In this document: piece after piece, positions 2,726 through 38,110 of the stretch | Layout of the letters: every line of letters begins with the position of its first letter | Position numbering within the stretch: position 1 is the stretch's first letter | Source of the DNA: Enterobacter phage CC31 | Length of the DNA stretch: 64,000 bases | Sequence record: NC_014662.1 | Strand: one strand, 5' to 3' | Position numbers and translations under genes: made by a program | Notes under the pieces: generated by a model | The model's input: only the letters and a program-made list of their open reading frames with translations | Database searches by the model: none | Told to the model about the DNA's origin: nothing

Positions 2726-3052
2726 TTAAACGGTTTCTGTACCAGCATTGATGATTTCCCATACTTGTTGGCGTGTAGTCTGCCAGTTAACACGGATGAT
2801 TTCGTCATTATAAGGTTGTTTGTAAATGTCACGCAGTTTACAGAGAGCGTACTTATATGCTTCGAAATTATTTTCGAGGACTGCGCCAGCGGCATGGTCA
2901 TTCAGTCGCTTAATTTCACGACGATTCTTTTTGAAGATTTTAGTTGCCATAGCATTTGCACGTCTCTGGCTTTCTTCTTCAATTAAACGCTTAATACGTT
3001 CTTCTTCGTTATCGTCGATTTGTTCTACGCTGTCAATATTACGTTCGTTCAT
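2726..3052 (-). CDS. hypothetical protein
   Basis: 108 aa ORF co-directional with the early gene block, charged/helical; overlapping antisense ORFs judged shadows. Confidence 0.4.
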   Translation of the reverse strand: MNERNIDSVEQIDDNEEERIKRLIEEESQRRANAMATKIFKKNRREIKRLNDHAAGAVLENNFEAYKYALCKLRDIYKQPYNDEIIRVNWQTTRQQVWEIINAGTETV

Positions 3053-3057
3053 TTGAC

Positions 3058-3312
3058 CTACTTACTTTTGTAATCAATTGTTATGCTAAAATCATTTTCT
3101 CCTAGATTATAACTGTGAGTTATCTCAGCATTATCAGAAGTGAATTCAGCGTCATGTGGGTTCTTGGGGTCGATGCGAATGTCCAAATCCAATACCTCCC
3201 TCATATACATTTTAAGCAAATAAGGGATAGCATCATAATCGGGCACTTCTTCCAGGAAACCTGCGAGGTTAATCGTCAGCCTCATATAAAAAATCCAAGT
3301 TCGGACCTTCAT
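3058..3312 (-). CDS. hypothetical protein (start probably internal to track ORF)
   Basis: 84 aa track ORF overlapping gp55 3' end; true start uncertain. Confidence 0.3.
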
Positions 3313-3802
3313 CTACAACATCGCTCTTTTTGTCAGACCCTGGCTGTTTGTAGGTGGAGGTTTCGTAATGCGTCATTTTATCGTAGATGTCTTGAATAAA
3401 AGTTTCATCTACTAACGCAACCATATCATCGTCACGAGCGTCATAGACGTTGTGAACAAAATAGCTATACTTTTTAGCAACTTCCTTACGTTCTTTCTTG
3501 ATACGTTGGACGAATGCGTTAAAGCAAGCACGGGTTATATACGCATGCGGGTTGTCGTACTTTGTTTCATCGAAGTTGTGTAGACCTTTAATAGAAGCCT
3601 CTACACCGTCTGAAATCATTTCATCTTTCCAAGAGCGGGTGTACCCCGAAAAGTTAAAACGCTTACTCAGACCCTCAGATATCAACATAATTGCTCTGCC
3701 GATAGTATCATTCTGACGAACGGGTTTACCAGCTTCGCGACATTGCTGTTTCCACTCAGTGATGGCTTTCAGCAACTCCTTATTATTTACATAGTTAGCC
3801 AT
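3269..3802 (-). CDS. 55: gp55 late-transcription sigma factor
   Basis: 177 aa; [11 protein letters not shown]...[26 protein letters not shown]...[28 protein letters not shown] closely matches T4 gp55 as recalled; ATG with GGAAGAGG RBS. Confidence 0.93.
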
Positions 3803-3868
3803 ATTACCTCTTCCGCTTCATTTAATAAGAATATTATAACACGTTTGGAGGAAGGGTATTTTAAGCAT

Positions 3869-4165
3869 CTATTTAAGGAGTTCGTAAAGCGAAAAGCACT
3901 TAATCATGAGTTTGCGGAAAGTAACAAAATCGAGTTCTGGCTCAAAAGCATTTTCATTACAGAATCTGAGCCATGATTTCCAAAGTTCGATGTAGCCGTT
4001 TTCATTCAGCTTAGATACATGGCCTCGCCAGACGTATTCTAAACTCGGGCCAGGTTCATTTGAGTCTGAGAATGTAATTCCCATCCACTTATCTACGAAA
4101 AATTCACCTAATCCAGTAACACGGAATGATGTGATTTCAATATTATCTAAAGTAATTCTGCTCAT
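3869..4165 (-). CDS. hypothetical protein (55.x region)
   Basis: 98 aa ORF, tightly packed with neighbours on minus strand. Confidence 0.4.
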   Translation of the reverse strand: MSRITLDNIEITSFRVTGLGEFFVDKWMGITFSDSNEPGPSLEYVWRGHVSKLNENGYIELWKSWLRFCNENAFEPELDFVTFRKLMIKCFSLYELLK

Positions 4166-17620: not shown

Positions 17621-18598
17621 TTATTTCAGCATAGTTACTTCAGCAATTTCAGTCCAGTTTTTCTCGTCGGTAGCGACGAAATCTGCCAGGTAAAGAGCTG
17701 TGCGGAGAGATACATTACGAAGGCGATTAACGTTGTTTTGCATAAATGCCAGAACGTCAAGTACTTGGTAGTGTTTTAAGCCGCGGTTCTGCAACATGTC
17801 GGTTGTCATAATAACATCTTCAACGCGAGACATGATTTCTTCGTTTGTGTGAACACCGAGGTCCAGATAAACAGAACGAGATACCAAAGCAGAAAGATGA
17901 GGAGCTAATTTGCTACCACGTTCTAATTCTTTATCAATATCAACGTTTGTGATGAAGACGACAGTACCTTCAAATTCAAATTCGTTTGGAATATCTTTTT
18001 CTTCCAGGAAAGCAGAAGCAGTTGACCAGCAAACTTTACGTTTTTCGCCAGAATCAAGAGCAGCTTTCAGAAGGTTCAGGATGTCCATATCAGAAAATAC
18101 GTCCACATCATCAATAAGCAGAACAGAATTTGAATGACGAGATTCCCAGAGACGGCAGTAAAGACCGATGCCAGAAATCTTACCGTTAACCATTTTGTAT
18201 TCAATATCACCGCGAGCATCTGCTTTAGTTAATGCTTTATCTAAGGAGAAAGTTTTACCGATACCAGCAGCACCTGAGATAATCAGTGAACGAATGTTTC
18301 CGTTAACCAGACCAGCAGTCATTAACCCCATAACGTTGAAGCGTTTAGCGATACGTGCTTTCATTTCTTCAACAGATTCGGTCAGAACTTCTTTAGTTAC
18401 TTGACCTTCAATTTTGTAATCACCGTGGAAAACCCATACTCCACGTTTCTTACCATCAATCATTACGAATACTTTACCATCACCCTGAGCAGCGTCAGCT
18501 TCAGATAAATCTTTTGGGAACCACTGATCAATGAATTCAAAAGTACCAGAAATTTCTTTACCGAAGTTAGTACCTTTGGTGATAGTGATGGTTTTCAT
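17621..18598 (-). CDS. P-loop NTPase (AAA-like ATPase), unknown function
   Basis: Walker A GAAGIGKTF and Walker B VLLIDDVDVF; start trimmed to ATG 18598 (MKTITITKG) with GGAG RBS and early promoter at about 18636-18666. Confidence 0.55.
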   Translation of the reverse strand: MKTITITKGTNFGKEISGTFEFIDQWFPKDLSEADAAQGDGKVFVMIDGKKRGVWVFHGDYKIEGQVTKEVLTESVEEMKARIAKRFNVMGLMTAGLVNGNIRSLIISGAAGIGKTFSLDKALTKADARGDIEYKMVNGKISGIGLYCRLWESRHSNSVLLIDDVDVFSDMDILNLLKAALDSGEKRKVCWSTASAFLEEKDIPNEFEFEGTVVFITNVDIDKELERGSKLAPHLSALVSRSVYLDLGVHTNEEIMSRVEDVIMTTDMLQNRGLKHYQVLDVLAFMQNNVNRLRNVSLRTALYLADFVATDEKNWTEIAEVTMLK

Positions 18599-18669
18599 TT
18601 TTGTTCTCCGAGTTTCTATTTGTTTGGTATGAGGTAATAGTATCATCATCTCATACCGTTGTAAACAAT

Positions 18670-18933
18670 TTATTTTAATGTCCGCCAAATTTTTACTGCT
18701 TCTCGTCTAGAAACTTCTACAGCTCCAAGCTCTACAGCTTTTTGACGACGGTCTGCACGCAAGTCATAGTGCTTAATGCGTTTGTCCTGGAACCAAGAAC
18801 GTTTCATTCCGATTGCTTCTGCTACTTTATGTAGCTCTTCGATATCTCCATCAGTGAACATATGACAATTTTTAGTTGGATGACCACGAAGCTTCCAACC
18901 ATGATTCATTAGAACATCTACGTAAACTGTCAT
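18670..18933 (-). CDS. hypothetical protein (DUF4031-like pattern)
   Basis: 87 aa; MTVYVDVL...CHMFTDGDIEELHKVAEAIGMKRSWFQ...HYDL resembles a widespread phage/prophage domain of unknown function. Confidence 0.4.
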   Translation of the reverse strand: MTVYVDVLMNHGWKLRGHPTKNCHMFTDGDIEELHKVAEAIGMKRSWFQDKRIKHYDLRADRRQKAVELGAVEVSRREAVKIWRTLK

Positions 18934-19641: not shown

Positions 19642-19725
19642 TTTATTATCCTTGATTTTGTTACCGTTTAGTTGATAGAGATATAGTATCAAAACTTAAA
19701 GCATCTGTAAACACTTTTTGAAAAC

Positions 19726-19759
19726 TTTCTTCAAAAACAACAAAACCTCCCGAAGGAGG
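19726..19759 (-). terminator. rho-independent terminator closing the 22000-19760 operon
   Basis: Hairpin CCTCC-TTCG-GGAGG followed on minus strand by TTTTGTTGTTTTT. Confidence 0.65.
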
Positions 19760-20020
19760 TTATTTTGAGTGTTTTTCTAGCTGGCGTTCAGCAAACAGTT
19801 TAGGTTGATACAACAACCAACTTAAGATATGCCAGATGACTTTTATGACACCGACAGGCAGCCATAATATAATACTAAACAAGTAATTAAAAGGTGTCTC
19901 TATGTACCCTCGTTTAACGAGAGCATTTGTGATGAGCCACCCGGCGGCTAGATAAACCAATGCAATAAAGACAGGCATAATCCACCATAGTTGAGCCAAA
20001 AGTAAAGTAACCATAATCAC
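19760..20020 (-). CDS. small membrane protein, last gene of NTase operon
   Basis: 86 aa, 2-3 TM helices; ATGA overlap with upstream NTase gene. Confidence 0.45.
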   Translation of the reverse strand: MIMVTLLLAQLWWIMPVFIALVYLAAGWLITNALVKRGYIETPFNYLFSIILWLPVGVIKVIWHILSWLLYQPKLFAERQLEKHSK

Positions 20021-21027
20021 CTGTAGTAAGAGTTGTGGTTCGCCAGATAAACCTCTTCAAGGAACTCGTCCCAGAATGTCATGTCAACTTTATCAGGCAT
20101 ACCGTTTTTAGAAGCGATGATGCTTTGACGTTCAACTTCATCTACACAGTTTTCTAACCATTCTTGAACTTCTTTGAATGGAATAGTGCCAGCTTTAACT
20201 TTCTTGATGAACTCAGCATCTTTAAGCGGATAAACCAAATCACCTGTGGTGTAGATTTCCTGGAGCTGAAGACCACCACGAAGAGCATGAGATAGAGCTT
20301 TCCAGTCTACGCCTTCGTTAGCTTCTGCTTTACGAGCACGTTCACCATATTCATTCCACAGCTTAGTGAGACTGTATTTCATTTCGGCAACAGTGATTGT
20401 TGTCTGGAATTTACGGCCAAGCACATTATAGAACTTCTGAACACCAGATTTGTGGTCAACAAAATCAGTCCACTCAAGGAACTCTGAAGTTGGAAGCAGA
20501 TGAGCAATATCAGCAACTTTCCAACGAACATTATGAGCTTTATCTTTTGGACGGTCTTCGTATTTCCATTCTGGATAAGGCTCTAATACTTCAAGAACTT
20601 TACGAAGTTCAGCTAAACGAGAACCTTTGACACCATACTTAGCTGCTTGCTTACGAACATAACCAAGATAAGCTTTCATATCGGTGGTGTAGAAGCGCCA
20701 GCGGTTATCTTGAATGAATTTCCATACTTCAGGAAGTTCAGACTTAACAACCATATTTGCAGGAGTATGAAGCATATCAAGCGCGACAGTTTCACCTGTA
20801 GCTGCTAATTGCAGGAAGTACTTCAAAGAATAGAGTTCATGGTCAACATCATCATGGGAGTTCTTTGTTGATGTGTTGTTTGTATTCAAATTGGTGTGAT
20901 TCATTGCACGGCCAAGAAGAATTTCCTTCGGATGAGGAACGAAGATTTCTTTGAAGTCCGTGTCACTTTCTGGTGTTGACGTACCATAAAGATGGCTACC
21001 GAAGTAGCCTTTCATAATTGTTTTCAT
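20017..21027 (-). CDS. Pol-beta superfamily nucleotidyltransferase-like protein
   Basis: 336 aa; N-terminal GSHLYGTSTPESDTDF fits the G[GS]x3Gx5SDxD nucleotidyltransferase signature, candidate third acidic residue in VALDML. Confidence 0.5.
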   Translation of the reverse strand: MKTIMKGYFGSHLYGTSTPESDTDFKEIFVPHPKEILLGRAMNHTNLNTNNTSTKNSHDDVDHELYSLKYFLQLAATGETVALDMLHTPANMVVKSELPEVWKFIQDNRWRFYTTDMKAYLGYVRKQAAKYGVKGSRLAELRKVLEVLEPYPEWKYEDRPKDKAHNVRWKVADIAHLLPTSEFLEWTDFVDHKSGVQKFYNVLGRKFQTTITVAEMKYSLTKLWNEYGERARKAEANEGVDWKALSHALRGGLQLQEIYTTGDLVYPLKDAEFIKKVKAGTIPFKEVQEWLENCVDEVERQSIIASKNGMPDKVDMTFWDEFLEEVYLANHNSYYR

Positions 21028-21449
21028 AGATAAATGTGTTGTCCTTTGGCAAATTTTACTAGCTCATTGGTAATTTTAACACATTGTTCAACGTGTTCTT
21101 TATCTTCGCTTTTCTTTGAAGTTCTATTAATATTTCCAACTTTCTGCTGAGAATAATAGTATTTCACTTCATGCGTATGATATTCTTGGCCATCTGGATG
21201 TTGTTCCCGCTGAACATGTTCTTTTAAAACAGTTTCATAGAGTGGAACTAATGCCCAATCACTTCCGATATTAATGATTGCTACTTGAATGTCAATCTTA
21301 TTCCACTTAAAAGCATTAACATATCCAAGTACCCTTTGAGAAGGGTCCATCATAGCAAATTTTATTCCGGAAATAGAAGCCATTGGCATTTGTTTTAGTA
21401 ATGACATACTAAGTTTTTTCTTAGTAGTTACAACTTCTATTTCAATCAT
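21024..21449 (-). CDS. hypothetical protein (NTase operon)
   Basis: 141 aa ORF, 4-nt overlaps on both sides. Confidence 0.4.
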   Translation of the reverse strand: MIEIEVVTTKKKLSMSLLKQMPMASISGIKFAMMDPSQRVLGYVNAFKWNKIDIQVAIINIGSDWALVPLYETVLKEHVQREQHPDGQEYHTHEVKYYYSQQKVGNINRTSKKSEDKEHVEQCVKITNELVKFAKGQHIYL

Positions 21450-22000
21450 TTAGTAGGTTGACCCCATGTGAATTGACCACCAAATGCCGAAATCAGAGAA
21501 GTGTCATTCAGATTCACTGGCAGACCGTCACCGCTTTCAGATTCGAGGAACATTGTACCACCATTTTTAGTGATAGCAATTACAGTGAATTCTTTAGAAC
21601 CTTTTTGGAATACATCACCAACAACTACTGGAATATTTTTGAAACCGGAAGCTTCAGCTTCATATGTTTCTGTGTATCGGCCTTCTTTTGGTCTGAAATT
21701 AGTAAAATCAACTAAATACTTGTTACGGTTTGAAGTTACATACACATTAGTAACGCCATATGATGTAATTTTATCTTCGCTATAAACGAAGAGTTCAATC
21801 ATAATACGAGTTGAATATACTTTTAAAACAGCTCGTTGATTTTTATTAATTTTAAGGAAAATATGAGTTGTTCCTTGACACCGGCTAATAAAATCAATTT
21901 CACCATCAAATTCTGTAGTTCCAGATTGAACTGTAATTGAGCGTCCAACTTCAAGTTCTTTCTTTACCAGACCTTTAGCTTTTACTTGACGAATAAACAT
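21446..22000 (-). CDS. hypothetical protein (NTase operon, first gene)
   Basis: 184 aa ORF. Confidence 0.4.
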   Translation of the reverse strand: MFIRQVKAKGLVKKELEVGRSITVQSGTTEFDGEIDFISRCQGTTHIFLKINKNQRAVLKVYSTRIMIELFVYSEDKITSYGVTNVYVTSNRNKYLVDFTNFRPKEGRYTETYEAEASGFKNIPVVVGDVFQKGSKEFTVIAITKNGGTMFLESESGDGLPVNLNDTSLISAFGGQFTWGQPTK

Positions 22001-22009
22001 AATATTTTC

Positions 22010-22231
22010 CTATACGAAGCGCCATGAACCATTACGATAAGCAATTGCACGGTCCATCAAGTCAGAAGCAGTTGATGTACCTTTCAGGTTGTTATGAACA
22101 ACTCGAATAATTTTGCCATCAGGGAAAGTGAATTCTGCTACCGGGAAGAGGCCCATAAGGCCTCGTTCAACCGTTGCATTAAACTTTGCAGATTCACCAT
22201 TAATTACATAATTGTGGTCTTGTTTAAGCAT
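22010..22231 (-). CDS. hypothetical protein
   Basis: 73 aa ORF. Confidence 0.35.
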   Translation of the reverse strand: MLKQDHNYVINGESAKFNATVERGLMGLFPVAEFTFPDGKIIRVVHNNLKGTSTASDLMDRAIAYRNGSWRFV

Positions 22232-22683
22232 TATTTAAATTCCAGAGTTGGGCAGAACTTCTCTTTACGAGCCTTAATGAAAGCGATAATGATATTAGGC
22301 TGCGGTGGAACGTAAGTGCCATTTTTACGAGCTTCCCATTCGGCAGCTTCTTTCTTTTCTTTTCGACGAGAGATTACTTTATAAATTCCGTAACCAATAC
22401 AGAAAATTGTACCAAAGACCGCGGCCAGAATAAGCCAACCAACAATCAACCCAGGAATAATTGCTGCCGCAGAAGACAGAACTACACCGCATTTAGCGAA
22501 CAGCCAAGTTGCTAAATCAACACCAGAACCCCAACCAGCGAAACATACAGCGAACGCGGCGAAAGCCAGAAGGAATGTATGCCATACGCCTTTCCAAAAG
22601 TATGGGCACAGAGAACGTGGGGCGCTTTCAGCACCATTCATAGTAACGAGTTTGTAGTGCCAAGAGTTAGTATTGATTTGCAT
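22231..22683 (-). CDS. hypothetical membrane protein
   Basis: 150 aa, several TM helices. Confidence 0.4.
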   Translation of the reverse strand: MQINTNSWHYKLVTMNGAESAPRSLCPYFWKGVWHTFLLAFAAFAVCFAGWGSGVDLATWLFAKCGVVLSSAAAIIPGLIVGWLILAAVFGTIFCIGYGIYKVISRRKEKKEAAEWEARKNGTYVPPQPNIIIAFIKARKEKFCPTLEFK

Positions 22684-22704: not shown

Positions 22705-22950
22705 TTATTTAAAGTTTTTGGAATTGGTCATATGAGGTATTGTAACCTGCAACCATGAAAGCAATTTCTCAGCTTCTTCTTTAAGAAGCTCAACTTCTTC
22801 ACCCTGAGAAATGATGGTGAGTACATCTTTCTCATCATTGACAAGGAGAAGAGTTTTAATATTAGCGTGTCCACCATGAACTGATTCAGCTTCATAGCTG
22901 ATAGTAGCATCTAAACCTGGGACTTTCCAATCTAACGTACACTTAGCCAT
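22705..22950 (-). CDS. hypothetical protein
   Basis: 81 aa ORF. Confidence 0.35.
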   Translation of the reverse strand: MAKCTLDWKVPGLDATISYEAESVHGGHANIKTLLLVNDEKDVLTIISQGEEVELLKEEAEKLLSWLQVTIPHMTNSKNFK

Positions 22951-23233
22951 TTGCTTGTTCCTTGCGAGCTCGTTCTTTAAGTTGCTCTTGAATTTTGAGC
23001 ATTGTTTCTGTGTATTCTTCTGAATTAGCTCTTACAATTCTAGAAGAATACGGAAGCGATTCATGATATTTCAAAAATCTCTCAAGACGCGGTTTGTATT
23101 GAGTAGAGAAATTGTACATCAAAAATCCTGTAGCACTTACGTGAGTACAAATTTCATATTGAATTCCGTCGTATTGACGAGTAACAATAATGTCTTTTAG
23201 CTCAAGACTTAGGCTCATTGACTTCTCCTGCAT
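22943..23233 (-). CDS. hypothetical protein
   Basis: 96 aa ORF. Confidence 0.35.
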   Translation of the reverse strand: MQEKSMSLSLELKDIIVTRQYDGIQYEICTHVSATGFLMYNFSTQYKPRLERFLKYHESLPYSSRIVRANSEEYTETMLKIQEQLKERARKEQANG

Positions 23234-23987: not shown

Positions 23988-24018
23988 CATTATACCATTA
24001 ACCAAGTTGTATGTAAAC
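23988..24018 (-). promoter_or_regulatory. sigma70-type early promoter (GTTTAC -35, TATAAT -10)
   Basis: Minus strand reads GTTTAC-N18-TATAAT immediately upstream of 23695..23964. Confidence 0.55.
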
Positions 24019-37064: not shown

Positions 37065-37137
37065 CTAGTGTACCTGGACTCGAACCAGGGAATCGTAGAA
37101 TCAAAATCTACTGCCTTACCAACTTGGCTATACCCCA
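37065..37137 (-). tRNA. tRNA-Gln (anticodon UUG)
   Basis: Minus strand TGGGGTATAGCCAAGTTGGTAAGGCA-GTAGA-TTTTGAT-TCTAC-...CCTGGTTCGAGTCCAGG; anticodon loop gives TTG; coordinates approximate. Confidence 0.7.
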
Positions 37138-37143
37138 ACTGTT

Positions 37144-37220
37144 TGGAGGCGGGTGATGGACTCGAACCATCGCGTAACGGGATATGAACCCGTCATTCTA
37201 CCAACTGAAGTTAACCCGCA
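37144..37220 (-). tRNA. tRNA with CAU anticodon (Met or lysidine-type Ile)
   Basis: Anticodon arm ACGGG-TTCATAT-CCCGT, T arm GATGGTTCGAGTCCATC, CCA encoded; pos 1:72 mismatch and irregular D arm lower confidence. Confidence 0.55.
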
Positions 37221-37340
37221 CTTATCCGGATTCCTGAAGTACAACGGCTGCTTTATGTAGAACTCACCTATTGTGAGGGAACAAAATCACTGGTCCTGGC
37301 ATTAATTATGGACCACCATCTTCAGGAACTGCCTCGTATT
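37221..37340 (-). ncRNA. structured spacer in tRNA cluster, candidate small stable RNA
   Basis: About 120 nt without ORF or tRNA; long-range complement ttcctgaagt/acttcaggaa and internal hairpin GGTCC...GGACC; T4 carries two small RNAs of unknown function in its tRNA cluster. Confidence 0.3.
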
Positions 37341-37416
37341 TGGCGGACCTAACGGGATTCGAACCCGTGACTCTCACGTGACAGGCGAGTATTTTCACCG
37401 CTGAAACTATAGGTCC
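37341..37416 (-). tRNA. tRNA-Asp (anticodon GUC)
   Basis: 76 nt with CCA; acceptor GGACCTA/TAGGTCC; anticodon arm CTCGC-CTGTCAC-GTGAG; T arm ACGGGTTCGAATCCCGT. Confidence 0.7.
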
Positions 37417-37658
37417 AAATTATCTTTCGTGATTATGTGAATCCCTCAGGTTTTCCGGAAAACCGAATAGGCGACAAAAGCTCTCATATACCCGTGCACA
37501 GATATAATCTTTGTTAACTAGTGTCTGAATCAGTATAATCCGAAAGATAACTTTCGGCGCCGTATTTAATTTGAGATATGTAGTTATCGTTGAGGGAACT
37601 CATATTCAGGGATTAACATGCCGACGACTTTGTCAGAACGTCTTCCAACTTCTATATT
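37417..37658 (-). ncRNA. structured spacer in tRNA cluster, candidate small stable RNA(s)
   Basis: About 240 nt without ORF or canonical T-loop; hairpins GGTTTTCC/GGAAAACC and CCGAAAG-N4-CTTTCGG. Confidence 0.3.
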
Positions 37659-37743
37659 TGGCGGGTCGTGCAGGTATCGAACCTGCCTAGTCATTTCTGA
37701 CACGGATTAACAGTCCGCCGCTTACCCTCTCAGCCAACGACCC
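37659..37743 (-). tRNA. tRNA-Asn-like (anticodon GUU) with unusually long variable arm
   Basis: 85 nt with CCA; perfect acceptor GGGTCGT/ACGACCC; anticodon arm GCGGA-CTGTTAA-TCCGT identical to the recalled E. coli tRNA-Asn arm; 15-nt variable region GTCAGAAATGACTAG. Confidence 0.6.
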
Positions 37744-37748
37744 AAATT

Positions 37749-37823
37749 TGGTTCTCCGTAAGAGAATTGAACTCTTCTTTCCGACGTGAAAGGCCGGCGT
37801 CCTAACCGATAGACGAACGGAGA
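37749..37823 (-). tRNA. tRNA-Glu (anticodon UUC)
   Basis: Acceptor TCTCCGT/ACGGAGA; TCGTCTA...GGAC D arm; anticodon arm CCGGC-CTTTCAC-GTCGG; T arm AAGAGTTCAATTCTCTT; CCA encoded. Confidence 0.75.
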
Positions 37824-37824
37824 T

Positions 37825-37902
37825 TGGTAGGACGTGAGGGAGTTGAACCCATCGACATTCCGATTAAAAGTCGGATGCTCTAACCAACTGAGCTAACGTC
37901 CT
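37825..37902 (-). tRNA. tRNA-Lys (anticodon UUU)
   Basis: Acceptor AGGACGT/ACGTCCT; D arm TAGCTCAGTTGGTTAGAGC; anticodon arm TCCGA-CTTTTAA-TCGGA; T stem pairs imperfectly in my reading. Confidence 0.6.
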
Positions 37903-37940
37903 GTAGATATTTATAATAACAAAAATATCTTTAAGCAAAT

Positions 37941-38016
37941 TGGTGGGAATAACTGGACTCGAACCAGTGACCTAACGATTATCGGTCGTTTGCTCTACCA
38001 ACTGAGCTATATTCCC
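37941..38016 (-). tRNA. tRNA-Ile (anticodon GAU)
   Basis: 76 nt: GGGAATATAGCTCAGTTGGTAGAGCA-AACGA-CCGATAA-TCGTT-AGGTC-ACTGGTTCGAGTCCAGT-TATTCCC-A-CCA. Confidence 0.7.
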
Positions 38017-38022
38017 TGAATT

Positions 38023-38110
38023 TGGTGGGGAGTGATGGAGTCGAACCACCCGAGTCGCAATGACAACAGATTTACAGTCTGCACCGCTACCTCTACGGAA
38101 TTAACTCCCC
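38023..38110 (-). tRNA. tRNA-Tyr (anticodon GUA), type II
   Basis: Acceptor GGGGAGT/ACTCCCC; anticodon arm GCAGA-CTGTAAA-TCTGT; long variable arm with GTC/GAC stem; T arm GGTGGTTCGACTCCATC; CCA encoded. Confidence 0.7.

What the first reader, a model, noticed from the sequence alone, without database searches (positions are those of the whole stretch)
19726..22000. Translationally coupled four-gene operon with a Pol-beta nucleotidyltransferase and a small membrane protein
Genes 21446-22000, 21024-21449, 20017-21027 and 19760-20020 each overlap the next by 4 nt (ATGA-type coupling) and end at a strong terminator (19726-19759). The third gene has an N-terminal GSHLYGTSTPESDTDF nucleotidyltransferase signature and the last encodes an 86-aa multi-TM protein. 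I do not recognise a T4 counterpart for this module in the nrdC-tk hypervariable region. The enzyme-plus-membrane-partner layout is reminiscent of nucleotide-signalling or nucleotide-modifying modules, so it is a candidate counter-defence or host-takeover system.
Basis: partly seen in the sequence, partly recalled or inferred. Interest (0 to 1): 0.7.

Follow-up and report, generated by a model that had tools for sequence, protein, structure and literature searches.

The report
T4 nrdC.11-type RNA-repair nucleotidyltransferase and neighbours
The central gene is the ordinary counterpart of phage T4 gene nrdC.11, an RlaP-family enzyme thought to patch damaged RNA ends, and the three small genes around it are variable passengers rather than parts of a new four-gene system.

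Summary
The four ORFs, their short overlaps and the terminator are real. The "four-gene module" reading does not hold.

- **Central gene.** The 336-aa protein is 67% identical, full length and ungapped, to T4 NrdC.11. It matches Pfam RlaP (PF10127) and keeps an invariant G10-S11 / D22xD24 / D62 active site. A confident AlphaFold model shows a Pol-beta fold.
- **Likely function.** Pseudomonas RlaP enzymes add 1-2 NMPs to RNA 3'-OH ends of cleaved tRNA (2025 preprint). That points to RNA repair alongside phage Pnk and Rnl1, not CD-NTase-type signalling.
- **Neighbours are variable.** NrdC.11 occurs in 1522 phage records. The 86-, 141- and 184-aa genes occur in only 253, 184 and 165. They are absent from T4, T6 and Bp7, and are lost or reordered in PG7, Kosakonia 305, Roth79 and S16.
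- **Overlaps are generic.** Four-nt overlaps are the commonest junction in this window (28 of 102). Runs of three or more occur four times.
- **Transcription unit is longer.** It probably starts about 2-2.6 kb upstream and holds about 11-12 genes.

Ordinary, already-known locus. The in vivo role of NrdC.11 remains untested.

The parts
20017..21027 (-). NrdC.11 ortholog: 336-aa RlaP-family (PF10127) Pol-beta nucleotidyltransferase. Motifs G10-S11, D22xD24 and D62.
   Evidence: 67% identity, ungapped, to T4 NrdC.11. Pfam RlaP 52.8 bits against a cut-off of 23, E 5.9e-14. phrog_388 E 5e-129. Motif residues invariant or nearly so in 126 homologs. AF2 pLDDT 90.2. Fold hits are all Pol-beta NTases.
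19760..20020 (-). Small two-TM membrane protein: 86 aa from GTG 20020, or more likely 84 aa from ATG 20014. phrog_6166, function unknown.
   Evidence: ORF. TM-like segments at about 1-36 and 44-70. Start-codon context. Homologs in 253 phage records, always just downstream of NrdC.11 where examined. Absent from T4, T6 and Bp7.
21024..21449 (-). 141-aa ORFan (phrog_7981), soluble, function unknown. Lineage-variable.
   Evidence: Found in 184 phage records. Absent in the close relative PG7. In S16 it lies upstream of the 184-aa-like gene, the reverse order.
21446..22000 (-). 184-aa ORFan (phrog_10164), predicted all-beta N-terminal domain, function unknown. Lineage-variable.
19734..19761 (-). Intrinsic terminator: 7-bp stem, UUCG loop, U-rich tail. 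The stem starts inside the stop codon of the membrane-protein gene.
   Evidence: T4 has an equivalent terminator directly after nrdC.11.
19683..19711 (-). T4-early-type promoter-like site (TTTACA-17-TACTAT with TG) that restarts transcription toward the next genes and nrdC.10.
   Evidence: The same GTTTACA-17-TACTAT arrangement follows the T4 nrdC.11 terminator.
22010..22683 (-). Upstream genes of the same unit: a 150-aa multi-TM membrane protein (22231-22683; RB32ORF096c family) and a 73-aa protein (22010-22231). These are the more deeply conserved neighbours of NrdC.11.
   Evidence: The membrane protein lies directly upstream of nrdC.11 in Bp7 and T6, and further upstream in Roth79, Kosakonia 305, S16 and Acinetobacter phage Kimel. 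The 73-aa homolog precedes NrdC.11 in Kimel.
23989..24017 (-). Best candidate promoter of the transcription unit that ends at the 19761-19734 terminator (TTTACA-17-TATAAT, TG).
   Evidence: 11/12 match, and no T-rich-tailed minus-strand terminator-like site between it and 19761 (the two other minus-strand stem-loops, at 22540-22521 and 21009-20994, lack a T-rich tail and lie inside ORFs). A further terminator (24633-24609) plus promoter (24587-24559) pair lies just upstream.

Best explanation
This is the distal end of a long early/middle transcription unit in the hyperplastic rI.-1-to-nrdC.10 region of a Karamvirus-type T4-like phage. Its one recognisable enzyme is the ortholog of T4 NrdC.11, a member of the RlaP family (PF10127).

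**Proposed mechanism**
- By family membership, the enzyme most likely uses its G-S / DxD / D active site with two divalent ions (Mn2+ preferred in characterised members).
- It would add one or two NMPs, without a template, to the 3'-OH of broken RNAs.
- The main inferred substrate is the 5' half of a tRNA whose anticodon loop was cut and then trimmed by a host anticodon nuclease of the RloC type.
- The phage's own polynucleotide kinase and RNA ligase 1, encoded elsewhere in the genome, could then reseal a full-length tRNA.

**Neighbouring genes**
The 184-aa, 141-aa and 86-aa genes are lineage-variable ORFans of unknown function. They share the transcript and the usual T4-style stop-start overlaps. 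They are not obligate partners of the enzyme.

**Shown versus inferred**
- Shown here: orthology, family membership, an intact catalytic site, a Pol-beta fold, and the lack of conservation of the four-gene unit.
- Inferred: the RNA substrate and the repair role in vivo.
For: **Orthology and family**
- 67% identity, ungapped, to T4 NrdC.11.
- Same position upstream of nrdC.10, with the same terminator and promoter, as in T4.
- Pfam RlaP above the gathering score and phrog_388.

**Active site and fold**
- In 126 homologs at 25-84% identity, G10, D22 and D62 are invariant; S11 and D24 each differ in one sequence. K243, H247 and R250 are also invariant.
- AF2 model pLDDT 90.2, with beta1-[GS]-helix-beta2(DxD)...beta(D62) followed by a helical C-terminal domain.
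- Structural neighbours are all Pol-beta NTases: HalB, 3c18, MNT, LinB, ANT.

**Biochemistry of the family (PMC12776372)**
- RlaP adds 1-2 NMP to RNA 3'-OH and prefers cleaved-tRNA mimics.
- It is Mn2+-dependent and acts on neither DNA nor protein.
- It restores aminoacylation of a tRNA missing one nucleotide.
- The paper places T4 NrdC.11 in the family (SSN cluster 5).
- PMC7824862 gives the same prediction for phage RlaPs.

**Repair partners**
- The relative COW86c (92.8% nt identity over the locus) encodes polynucleotide kinase and RNA ligase 1.
- A distant NrdC.11-like homolog (P0182) sits two genes downstream of a PF09414 RNA ligase.

**Not a four-gene unit**
Against: - No NrdC.11-type enzyme has been assayed. 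The characterised Pseudomonas RlaPs belong to a different SSN cluster (1a versus 5).
- The Pfam match covers mainly the N-terminal NTase domain (residues 6-136).
- In this phage and in T4 the gene is not adjacent to Pnk or RNA ligase.
- The PfRlaP crystal structure was not found in the PDB copy, so no direct superposition was possible.
- T4 tolerates deletion of nrdC.11-mobD.3 (PMC9825161). That fits an accessory role but gives no phenotype.
- The two bacterial/MGE homologs other than P0182 whose contexts were examined (P0186, P0204) show no RNA ligase within 6 kb.
Confidence: 0.6

Rival explanations
1. The four genes form a dedicated, translationally coupled module in which the NTase makes or modifies a nucleotide signal and the 86-aa membrane protein is its effector or partner (CBASS-, Thoeris- or Hailong-like logic, or its inhibition).
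For: - The overlaps and the shared terminator are real.
- Where present, the 86-aa homolog always lies just downstream of NrdC.11.
Against: - The three partner genes occur in only 253, 184 and 165 records against 1522 for NrdC.11.
- T4, T6 and Bp7 lack all three. PG7 lacks the 141-aa gene.
- Gene order differs in Roth79 and S16. Extra genes or 187 nt separate NrdC.11 from the membrane gene in Roth79 and Kosakonia 305.
- The S16 record has a stop at codon 53 of NrdC.11, yet its membrane gene is intact.
- Distant phages have non-membrane small ORFs downstream instead.
- 4-nt overlaps are generic here.
- No PADLOC hit.
Confidence: 0.06
2. NrdC.11 is a HalB-like oligonucleotide synthase. It would make short DNA or RNA oligomers, either as a decoy that keeps host Hailong HalA channels closed (anti-Hailong) or to regulate a phage membrane protein.
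Against: - Only 13% identity, with TM-scores of 0.23-0.38.
- A 126-sequence NrdC.11 profile finds no HalB sequence in the PDB, even at E <= 10.
- NrdC.11 is about 120 residues longer, with a different C-terminal helical domain.
- Pfam places it in RlaP, whose tested members do not extend DNA and stop after 1-2 additions.
- The similarity is at the level shared by MNT, ANT and LinB enzymes.
Confidence: 0.05
3. NrdC.11 nucleotidylylates a non-RNA acceptor, either a small molecule (as ANT, LinB and KNTase do) or a protein (as MNT, DrrA and GlnE do). That would modify a host factor during takeover.
For: Fold neighbours include KNTase/ANT(4'), LinB, AadA, MNT, DrrA and GlnE. The two-domain NTase-plus-helical layout resembles ANT and LinB enzymes.
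Against: - Sequence family assignment is to RlaP.
- Tested RlaPs labelled RNA but not protein or DNA in E. coli extracts.
- There is no HEPN partner.
Confidence: 0.1
4. NrdC.11 works with its deeply conserved neighbours (the 150-aa membrane protein, the 73-aa protein and the P-loop protein NrdC.10) in a still-unknown Straboviridae system. The RlaP-type chemistry would be only one step of it.
For: The order membrane protein (+73-aa) - NrdC.11 - ... - NrdC.10 is kept from Tequatrovirus, Dhakavirus and Karamvirus to Acinetobacter phage Kimel. NrdC.10 has a Walker-A motif and weak AAA/STAND matches.
Against: - Conserved synteny in T4-like core regions is common without any functional link.
- A terminator and a promoter separate NrdC.11 from NrdC.10.
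- T4 replaced the membrane gene with the homing endonuclease mobD.
- phiM7, Vibrio D485 and RB43 show no detectable homologs of these neighbours within 3 kb of NrdC.11.
Confidence: 0.12

Closest known systems
Phage T4 NrdC.11 (NP_049709; annotated nucleotidyltransferase)
   Same: - 336 aa in both, 67% identical with no gaps.
- Same genomic slot immediately upstream of a terminator, an early-type promoter and nrdC.10.
- Start codon overlapped by the upstream gene's end in both.
   Different: - T4 has the homing endonuclease mobD upstream and no small gene downstream.
- This phage has the 73/184/141-aa genes upstream and an 84-86-aa membrane gene downstream.
- The function of T4 NrdC.11 has not been tested experimentally.
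Pseudomonas RlaP (PfRlaP/PaRlaP), PF10127, RNA 3'-end NMP transferase (PMC12776372)
   Same: - Same Pfam family.
- G-S / DxD / D catalytic residues.
- N-terminal NTase domain plus C-terminal helical domain (one search compared with the paper's description).
- Proposed role alongside 5'-phosphate RNA ligases, which this phage lineage encodes.
   Different: - Different SSN cluster (5 versus 1a).
- The Pfam alignment covers mainly residues 6-136.
- The gene is not in an RtcB/RtcA operon and is unlinked to RNA ligase.
- Activity is not measured for any NrdC.11-type member.
Hailong HalB (PDB 9dbh/9dbj), oligodeoxyadenylate-synthesising NTase paired with the HalA membrane channel
   Different: - 13% identity, with no profile-level sequence match.
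- HalB is about 217 aa and lacks the NrdC.11 C-terminal domain.
- Hailong is a bacterial defence system, not a phage gene.
- The membrane neighbour here is not conserved with the enzyme.
Aminoglycoside/lincosamide nucleotidyltransferases (KNTase/ANT(4'), LinB, AadA) and MNT antitoxins
   Same: Pol-beta core plus, for ANT and LinB, a helical second domain. These recur among the fold hits.
CD-NTases of CBASS (cGAS/DncV-like)
   Same: Only the Pol-beta superfamily acidic-triad chemistry.
   Different: - No PADLOC CBASS model hit.
- No effector or Cap genes nearby.

Membership tests
Pol-beta nucleotidyltransferase superfamily | hG[GS] motif, DxD pair and a third carboxylate on successive strands of the minimal NTase fold. 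| tested here: met
   In 126 homologs G10, D22 and D62 are invariant, and S11 and D24 each differ in one sequence. The AF2 model places them on E2-9 / H11-14 / E23-30 / E61-67. All meaningful fold hits are Pol-beta NTases.
RlaP (PF10127) | Sequence match to the family HMM above Pfam's gathering score. | tested here: met
   52.8 bits against a cut-off of 23, E 5.9e-14. All 120 listed close homologs, and most of the distant ones, carry PF10127 in the precomputed annotation. PMC12776372 lists T4 NrdC.11 as a family member.
RlaP (PF10127) | Two-domain architecture: N-terminal NTase, C-terminal helical domain, and a terminal helix packing back on the NTase domain (PfRlaP crystal structure). | tested here: inconclusive
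   The AF2 model has an N-terminal NTase domain, a helical C-terminal half and a long terminal helix at 316-335. This fits the published description. The PfRlaP structure was not found in the PDB copy, so no superposition was possible.
RlaP (PF10127) | Genomic association with RNA ligase or RNA-repair genes. | tested here: inconclusive
   The gene is not adjacent to such genes here or in T4. The near-identical lineage encodes Pnk and Rnl1 about 87-90 kb away. One distant homolog lies two genes from a PF09414 RNA ligase; two others show none within 6 kb.
RlaP (PF10127) | Template-independent addition of 1-2 NMP to RNA 3'-OH (Mn2+-dependent). | not testable with these tools
   This needs a biochemical assay. 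It is shown only for Pseudomonas members (PMC12776372).
T4 NrdC.11 orthologous group | Full-length high identity to T4 NrdC.11, and conserved position upstream of nrdC.10. | tested here: met
   67% identity over 336/336 residues. NrdC.10 ortholog lies at 17621-18688, with 72.5% identity to T4. The terminator/promoter layout is shared.
CD-NTase / CBASS cyclase | Match to CD-NTase models, a cGAS/DncV-like fold, and adjacent effector or Cap genes. | tested here: not met
   No PADLOC hit. No cGAS/DncV among the listed fold matches. The neighbours are ORFans.
Hailong (HalB NTase + HalA channel) | HalB-family NTase encoded with a conserved HalA membrane-channel partner. | tested here: not met
   Record counts are 1522 against 253, 184 and 165. 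Losses, reorderings and insertions are seen in PG7, Roth79, Kosakonia 305, S16, Bp7, T6 and T4.
MNT-HEPN toxin-antitoxin | A small MNT NTase paired with a HEPN toxin gene. | tested here: not met

The most novel reading that the evidence does not exclude
NrdC.11-type NTases may not be RNA-repair enzymes. They could be phage-encoded HalB-like oligonucleotide synthases that act through membrane proteins. One route would be supplying a decoy oligonucleotide that keeps host Hailong-type channels shut. Another would be gating the phage's own small membrane proteins: the 150-aa family upstream and the 86-aa family downstream.
Probability: 0.04. Interest if true: 0.8.

Novelty: already known. Interest (0 to 1): 0.15.

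Why it matters
This finding corrects a false "no T4 counterpart" lead. The enzyme is T4 nrdC.11, present in about 1500 sequenced phages and already assigned to the RlaP RNA-repair family.

The remaining value is modest but real:
- No NrdC.11-type enzyme has been assayed.
- If it restores nucleotides excised by RloC-type anticodon nucleases, it would add a third step (end-filling) to the classic T4 Pnk/Rnl1 tRNA-repair counter-defence.
- The three flanking ORFans are typical hyperplastic-region cargo with no functional lead.

Tried and rejected
**NTase searches**
- Sequence searches of the PDB with the protein and with a 126-sequence profile gave no meaningful hit. PfRlaP seems not to be deposited or released.
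- NCBIfam and PADLOC gave nothing for the NTase.

**The three small proteins**
- Pfam, NCBIfam and PADLOC gave nothing for any of them. PHROGs gave only families of unknown function.
- The 184-aa protein was tested as a possible T4 MobD.1 homolog, given its similar size and position. There is no similarity.
- A protein-database search for the 184-aa protein returned only 6 close relatives.

**S16 as a test of dependence between genes**
- I first read the S16 annotation as an insertion-disrupted NrdC.11.
- Translation shows a single in-frame stop at codon 53. The supposed insert (gp56.2) is a 184-aa-like gene upstream. The stop may be a sequencing error.

**Other**
- The Hailong primary paper (PMC12360457) is not held, so its mechanism is cited from a review.
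- Rfam found no RNA family in the locus.
- A MotA-box pattern scan gave a candidate middle promoter at 22763-22739. The pattern is only about 2-fold enriched over shuffles, so I list it as a candidate only.
Full report
**1. The observation**

The four minus-strand ORFs are present exactly as described: 21446-22000 (184 aa), 21024-21449 (141 aa), 20017-21027 (336 aa) and 19760-20020 (86 aa).

- The first two junctions are ATGA overlaps.
- The third is GTGA. The GTG has no Shine-Dalgarno sequence. An ATG 6 nt downstream (20014) follows AGGTGA and yields the 84-aa product annotated in phages PG7 and S16. The last junction may therefore be a 2-nt gap.
- The terminator is real. On the minus strand the stem AACCTCC-UUCG-GGAGGUU lies at 19761-19744, followed by UUGUUGUUUU. 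Its MFE is -13.7 kcal/mol, with a modest z-score of -1.7 for the 56-nt context.
- A T4-early-type promoter-like site follows immediately (19711-19683, TTTACA-17-TACTAT with TG).
- The 86-aa product has two TM-like hydrophobic segments.

**2. Is it more than chance, and is it a four-gene operon?**

It is neither.

- With a crude ORF call, 28 of 102 same-strand junctions in the window are 4-nt overlaps. That is the commonest class.
- Runs of three or more consecutive 4-nt overlaps occur four times in the 64 kb.
- The 184-aa gene starts 9 nt after the preceding gene (22010-22231). That gene in turn overlaps a 150-aa membrane-protein gene (22231-22683) by 1 nt.
- No T-rich-tailed minus-strand terminator-like site lies between 19761 and 24609. 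The other two minus-strand stem-loops (22540-22521 and 21009-20994) lack a T-rich tail and lie inside ORFs.
- The best upstream promoter-like sites are 24017-23989 (11/12 match, TG) and 24587-24559. The latter sits just after a terminator at 24633-24609.
- A MotA-box-like candidate lies at 22763-22739.
- The transcription unit is therefore probably about 4.2-4.8 kb with 11-12 genes. The four genes are its tail.
- T4 has the same architecture. A terminator follows rI.-1, then a string of small mobD.x genes, then nrdC.11. After that come a terminator (AGGGAGCC-TTCG-GGCTCCCT plus a T-run), GTTTACA-17-TACTAT and nrdC.10.

**3. What the window is**

- The locus is 95% identical in DNA to Enterobacter phage EcL8g and 91-95% identical to many Karamvirus (PG7-like) phages.
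- Thymidine kinase, rI.-1-like and DksA-like genes lie upstream, and NrdC.10 lies downstream, as in T4.

**4. The enzyme**

*Orthology and family*
- The 336-aa protein aligns with T4 NrdC.11 over all 336 residues without gaps, at 67% identity.
- It matches Pfam PF10127 (RlaP, "RNA repair pathway DNA polymerase beta family") at 52.8 bits against a cut-off of 23.
- It matches phrog_388 at E 5e-129.
- tblastn finds it in 1522 phage records, from Tequatrovirus to Acinetobacter, Aeromonas, Vibrio and Sinorhizobium phages.

*Active site*
- In an alignment of 126 homologs at 25-84% identity, G10, G15, S21, D22, D62, G78, G228, K243, H247, A248 and R250 are invariant. S11 and D24 each differ in only one sequence.

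*Fold*
- The AlphaFold2 model is confident (pLDDT 90.2, pTM 0.74). It shows strand-[GS]-helix-strand(DxD), a later strand carrying D62, a beta-hairpin insert, and a helical C-terminal half.
- No cGAS/DncV-type or CCA-adding enzymes appear in the listed matches. PADLOC has no match.

**5. Likely mechanism**

*Published work on the family*
- RlaP was named for its association with RNA ligases. It was predicted to restore nucleotides lost from cleaved RNAs before ligation (summarised for phages in PMC7824862).
- A December 2025 preprint (PMC12776372) characterised two Pseudomonas RlaPs:
  - They add one or two NMPs (or dNMPs) to RNA 3'-OH ends.
  - They do not act on DNA or protein.
  - They prefer Mn2+.
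  - They favour the 5' half of a cleaved-tRNA mimic.
  - They partially restore aminoacylation of a tRNA lacking one anticodon-loop nucleotide after ligation with T4 Rnl1.
- The authors place T4 NrdC.11 in the family (SSN cluster 5, against cluster 1a for the tested enzymes). They propose RlaP as the antidote to nucleotide-excising ribotoxins such as RloC.

- The close relative COW86c encodes polynucleotide kinase and RNA ligase 1 about 87-90 kb away, as T4 does.
- One distant NrdC.11-like homolog lies two genes downstream of a PF09414 RNA ligase.
- Others show a tandem RlaP pair or no ligase nearby.

*My reading*
- The enzyme fills in RNA 3' ends as an accessory step of phage tRNA repair.
- I give about 0.55-0.6 to the in vivo role, and about 0.97 to the family and orthology assignment.
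- T4 tolerates loss of nrdC.11-mobD.3 (PMC9825161), as expected for an accessory counter-defence gene.

**6. The three other genes**

They have no Pfam, NCBIfam or PADLOC assignment. Their PHROG families are of unknown function.

*Distribution*
- The 86-aa gene is in 253 records, the 141-aa gene in 184 and the 184-aa gene in 165. NrdC.11 is in 1522.

*Synteny*

| Phage | Gene order |
|---|---|
| This window, COW86c, KaAlpha | memb150 - 73 - 184 - 141 - NrdC.11 - memb86 |
| PG7 | 141-aa gene absent |
| Roth79 (related to Klebsiella phage JD18) | memb150 - 184 - 73 - 141 - NrdC.11 - 62aa - memb86 |
| Kosakonia 305 | memb150 - 184 - NrdC.11 - 187 nt - memb86 |
| S16 | memb150 - 141 - 184-like - NrdC.11 - memb86 |
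| Bp7, T6 | memb150 - NrdC.11 - NrdC.10 |
| T4 | mobD - NrdC.11 - NrdC.10 |
| Acinetobacter phage Kimel | memb153 - 73-like - NrdC.11 - two unrelated small ORFs - NrdC.10 |
| RB43, phiM7, Vibrio D485 | non-membrane small ORFs follow the enzyme |

*What the synteny shows*
- The NrdC.11 start is overlapped by the stop of whichever gene lies upstream:
  - 141-aa, 184-aa, memb150 or an unrelated gene, by 4 nt;
  - T6 memb150, by 1 nt;
  - T4 mobD, by 17 nt.
- The enzyme lacks a well-placed Shine-Dalgarno sequence.
- Coupling is therefore a property of how NrdC.11 is expressed in a packed transcript. It is not evidence for a specific partner.

*Other points*
- The 141- and 184-aa genes are more AT-rich (GC 0.33-0.36) than NrdC.11 (about 0.41).

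**7. Rivals**

This is contradicted by the distribution and synteny data.
- **(b) A HalB-like oligonucleotide synthase or anti-Hailong decoy.**
  - HalB is the best structural neighbour, and Hailong pairs an NTase with a membrane channel (PMC13276650).
  - Against it, identity is 13% and a family profile finds no HalB sequence.
  - The C-terminal domain differs, and the resemblance is no greater than that expected between Pol-beta NTase families.
- **(c) A small-molecule or protein nucleotidyltransferase.** Only weak core-fold similarity supports this. Tested RlaPs did not label proteins.
- **(d) Cooperation with the deeply conserved neighbours (memb150, 73-aa, P-loop NrdC.10).** Synteny supports this. 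However, a terminator and promoter separate NrdC.10, and T4 lost memb150 to mobD.

**8. Verdict**

- It is wrong about the absence of a T4 counterpart, the four-gene unit and the signalling analogy.
- The locus is already known (T4 nrdC.11 / RlaP).
- What remains open is the experimental function of NrdC.11-type enzymes and of the ORFans.

Noticed in passing
window 20017-21027 and 17621-18688; GenBank/UniRef names: Many public records name NrdC.11 orthologs 'thioredoxin' (for example KaAlpha, X20, P896, and UniRef 'Thioredoxin' clusters). At least one record (KaAlpha) does the same for NrdC.10. This looks like error propagation from the 'nrdC.x' gene names. Neither protein is a thioredoxin.
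   Followed up: partly
L012 (Salmonella phage S16, NC_020416.1) 2990-4000: The S16 NrdC.11 ortholog carries an in-frame stop at codon 53, between the DxD motif and D62. It is annotated as fragments gp56.1 and gp56. The downstream 84-aa membrane gene is intact. This is either a real pseudogene or a sequencing error.
   Followed up: partly
window 22231-22683 (-) and 22010-22231 (-): A 150-aa multi-TM protein (RB32ORF096c / 'replaces mobD' family) and a 73-aa protein are conserved upstream of NrdC.11, from T-even phages to Acinetobacter phage Kimel. They are more widely conserved than the 86-aa membrane protein the finding focused on. Their function is unknown.
   Followed up: partly
window 17621-18688 (-): The NrdC.10 ortholog has a Walker-A motif (GAAGIGKT) and sub-threshold AAA_22, AAA_16 and novel-STAND NTPase matches. 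It is a conserved neighbour of NrdC.11 across Straboviridae. The likely true start is the ATG giving 326 aa, not the upstream TTG.
   Followed up: partly
L020 6001-7760 (metagenome scaffold, homolog P0204): A bacterial chromosome-like contig carries two tandem RlaP paralogs (327 aa and 259 aa) overlapping by 4 nt, next to YjbR and zf-CHCC genes. No RNA ligase lies within 6 kb.
   Followed up: no
window 37065-38110 (-): A cluster of eight tRNA genes (Rfam tRNA, 39-74 bits), the equivalent of the T4 tRNA region.
   Followed up: no
window 22705-23233 (-) and 18670-18933 (-): Other recognisable small genes lie nearby. Two are in the same transcription unit: T4_y05I_C (PF24448, 22705-22950) and a phage Tudor domain (PF24144, 22943-23233). 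A DUF4031 protein (18670-18933) lies beyond the terminator.
   Followed up: no
window 22739-22763 (-): A MotA-box-like middle-promoter candidate (TGCTTTCATGGTTGCAGGTTACAAT) lies about 56 nt upstream of the 150-aa membrane gene. The pattern is about 2-fold enriched in the window over shuffles (30 against 15).
   Followed up: no
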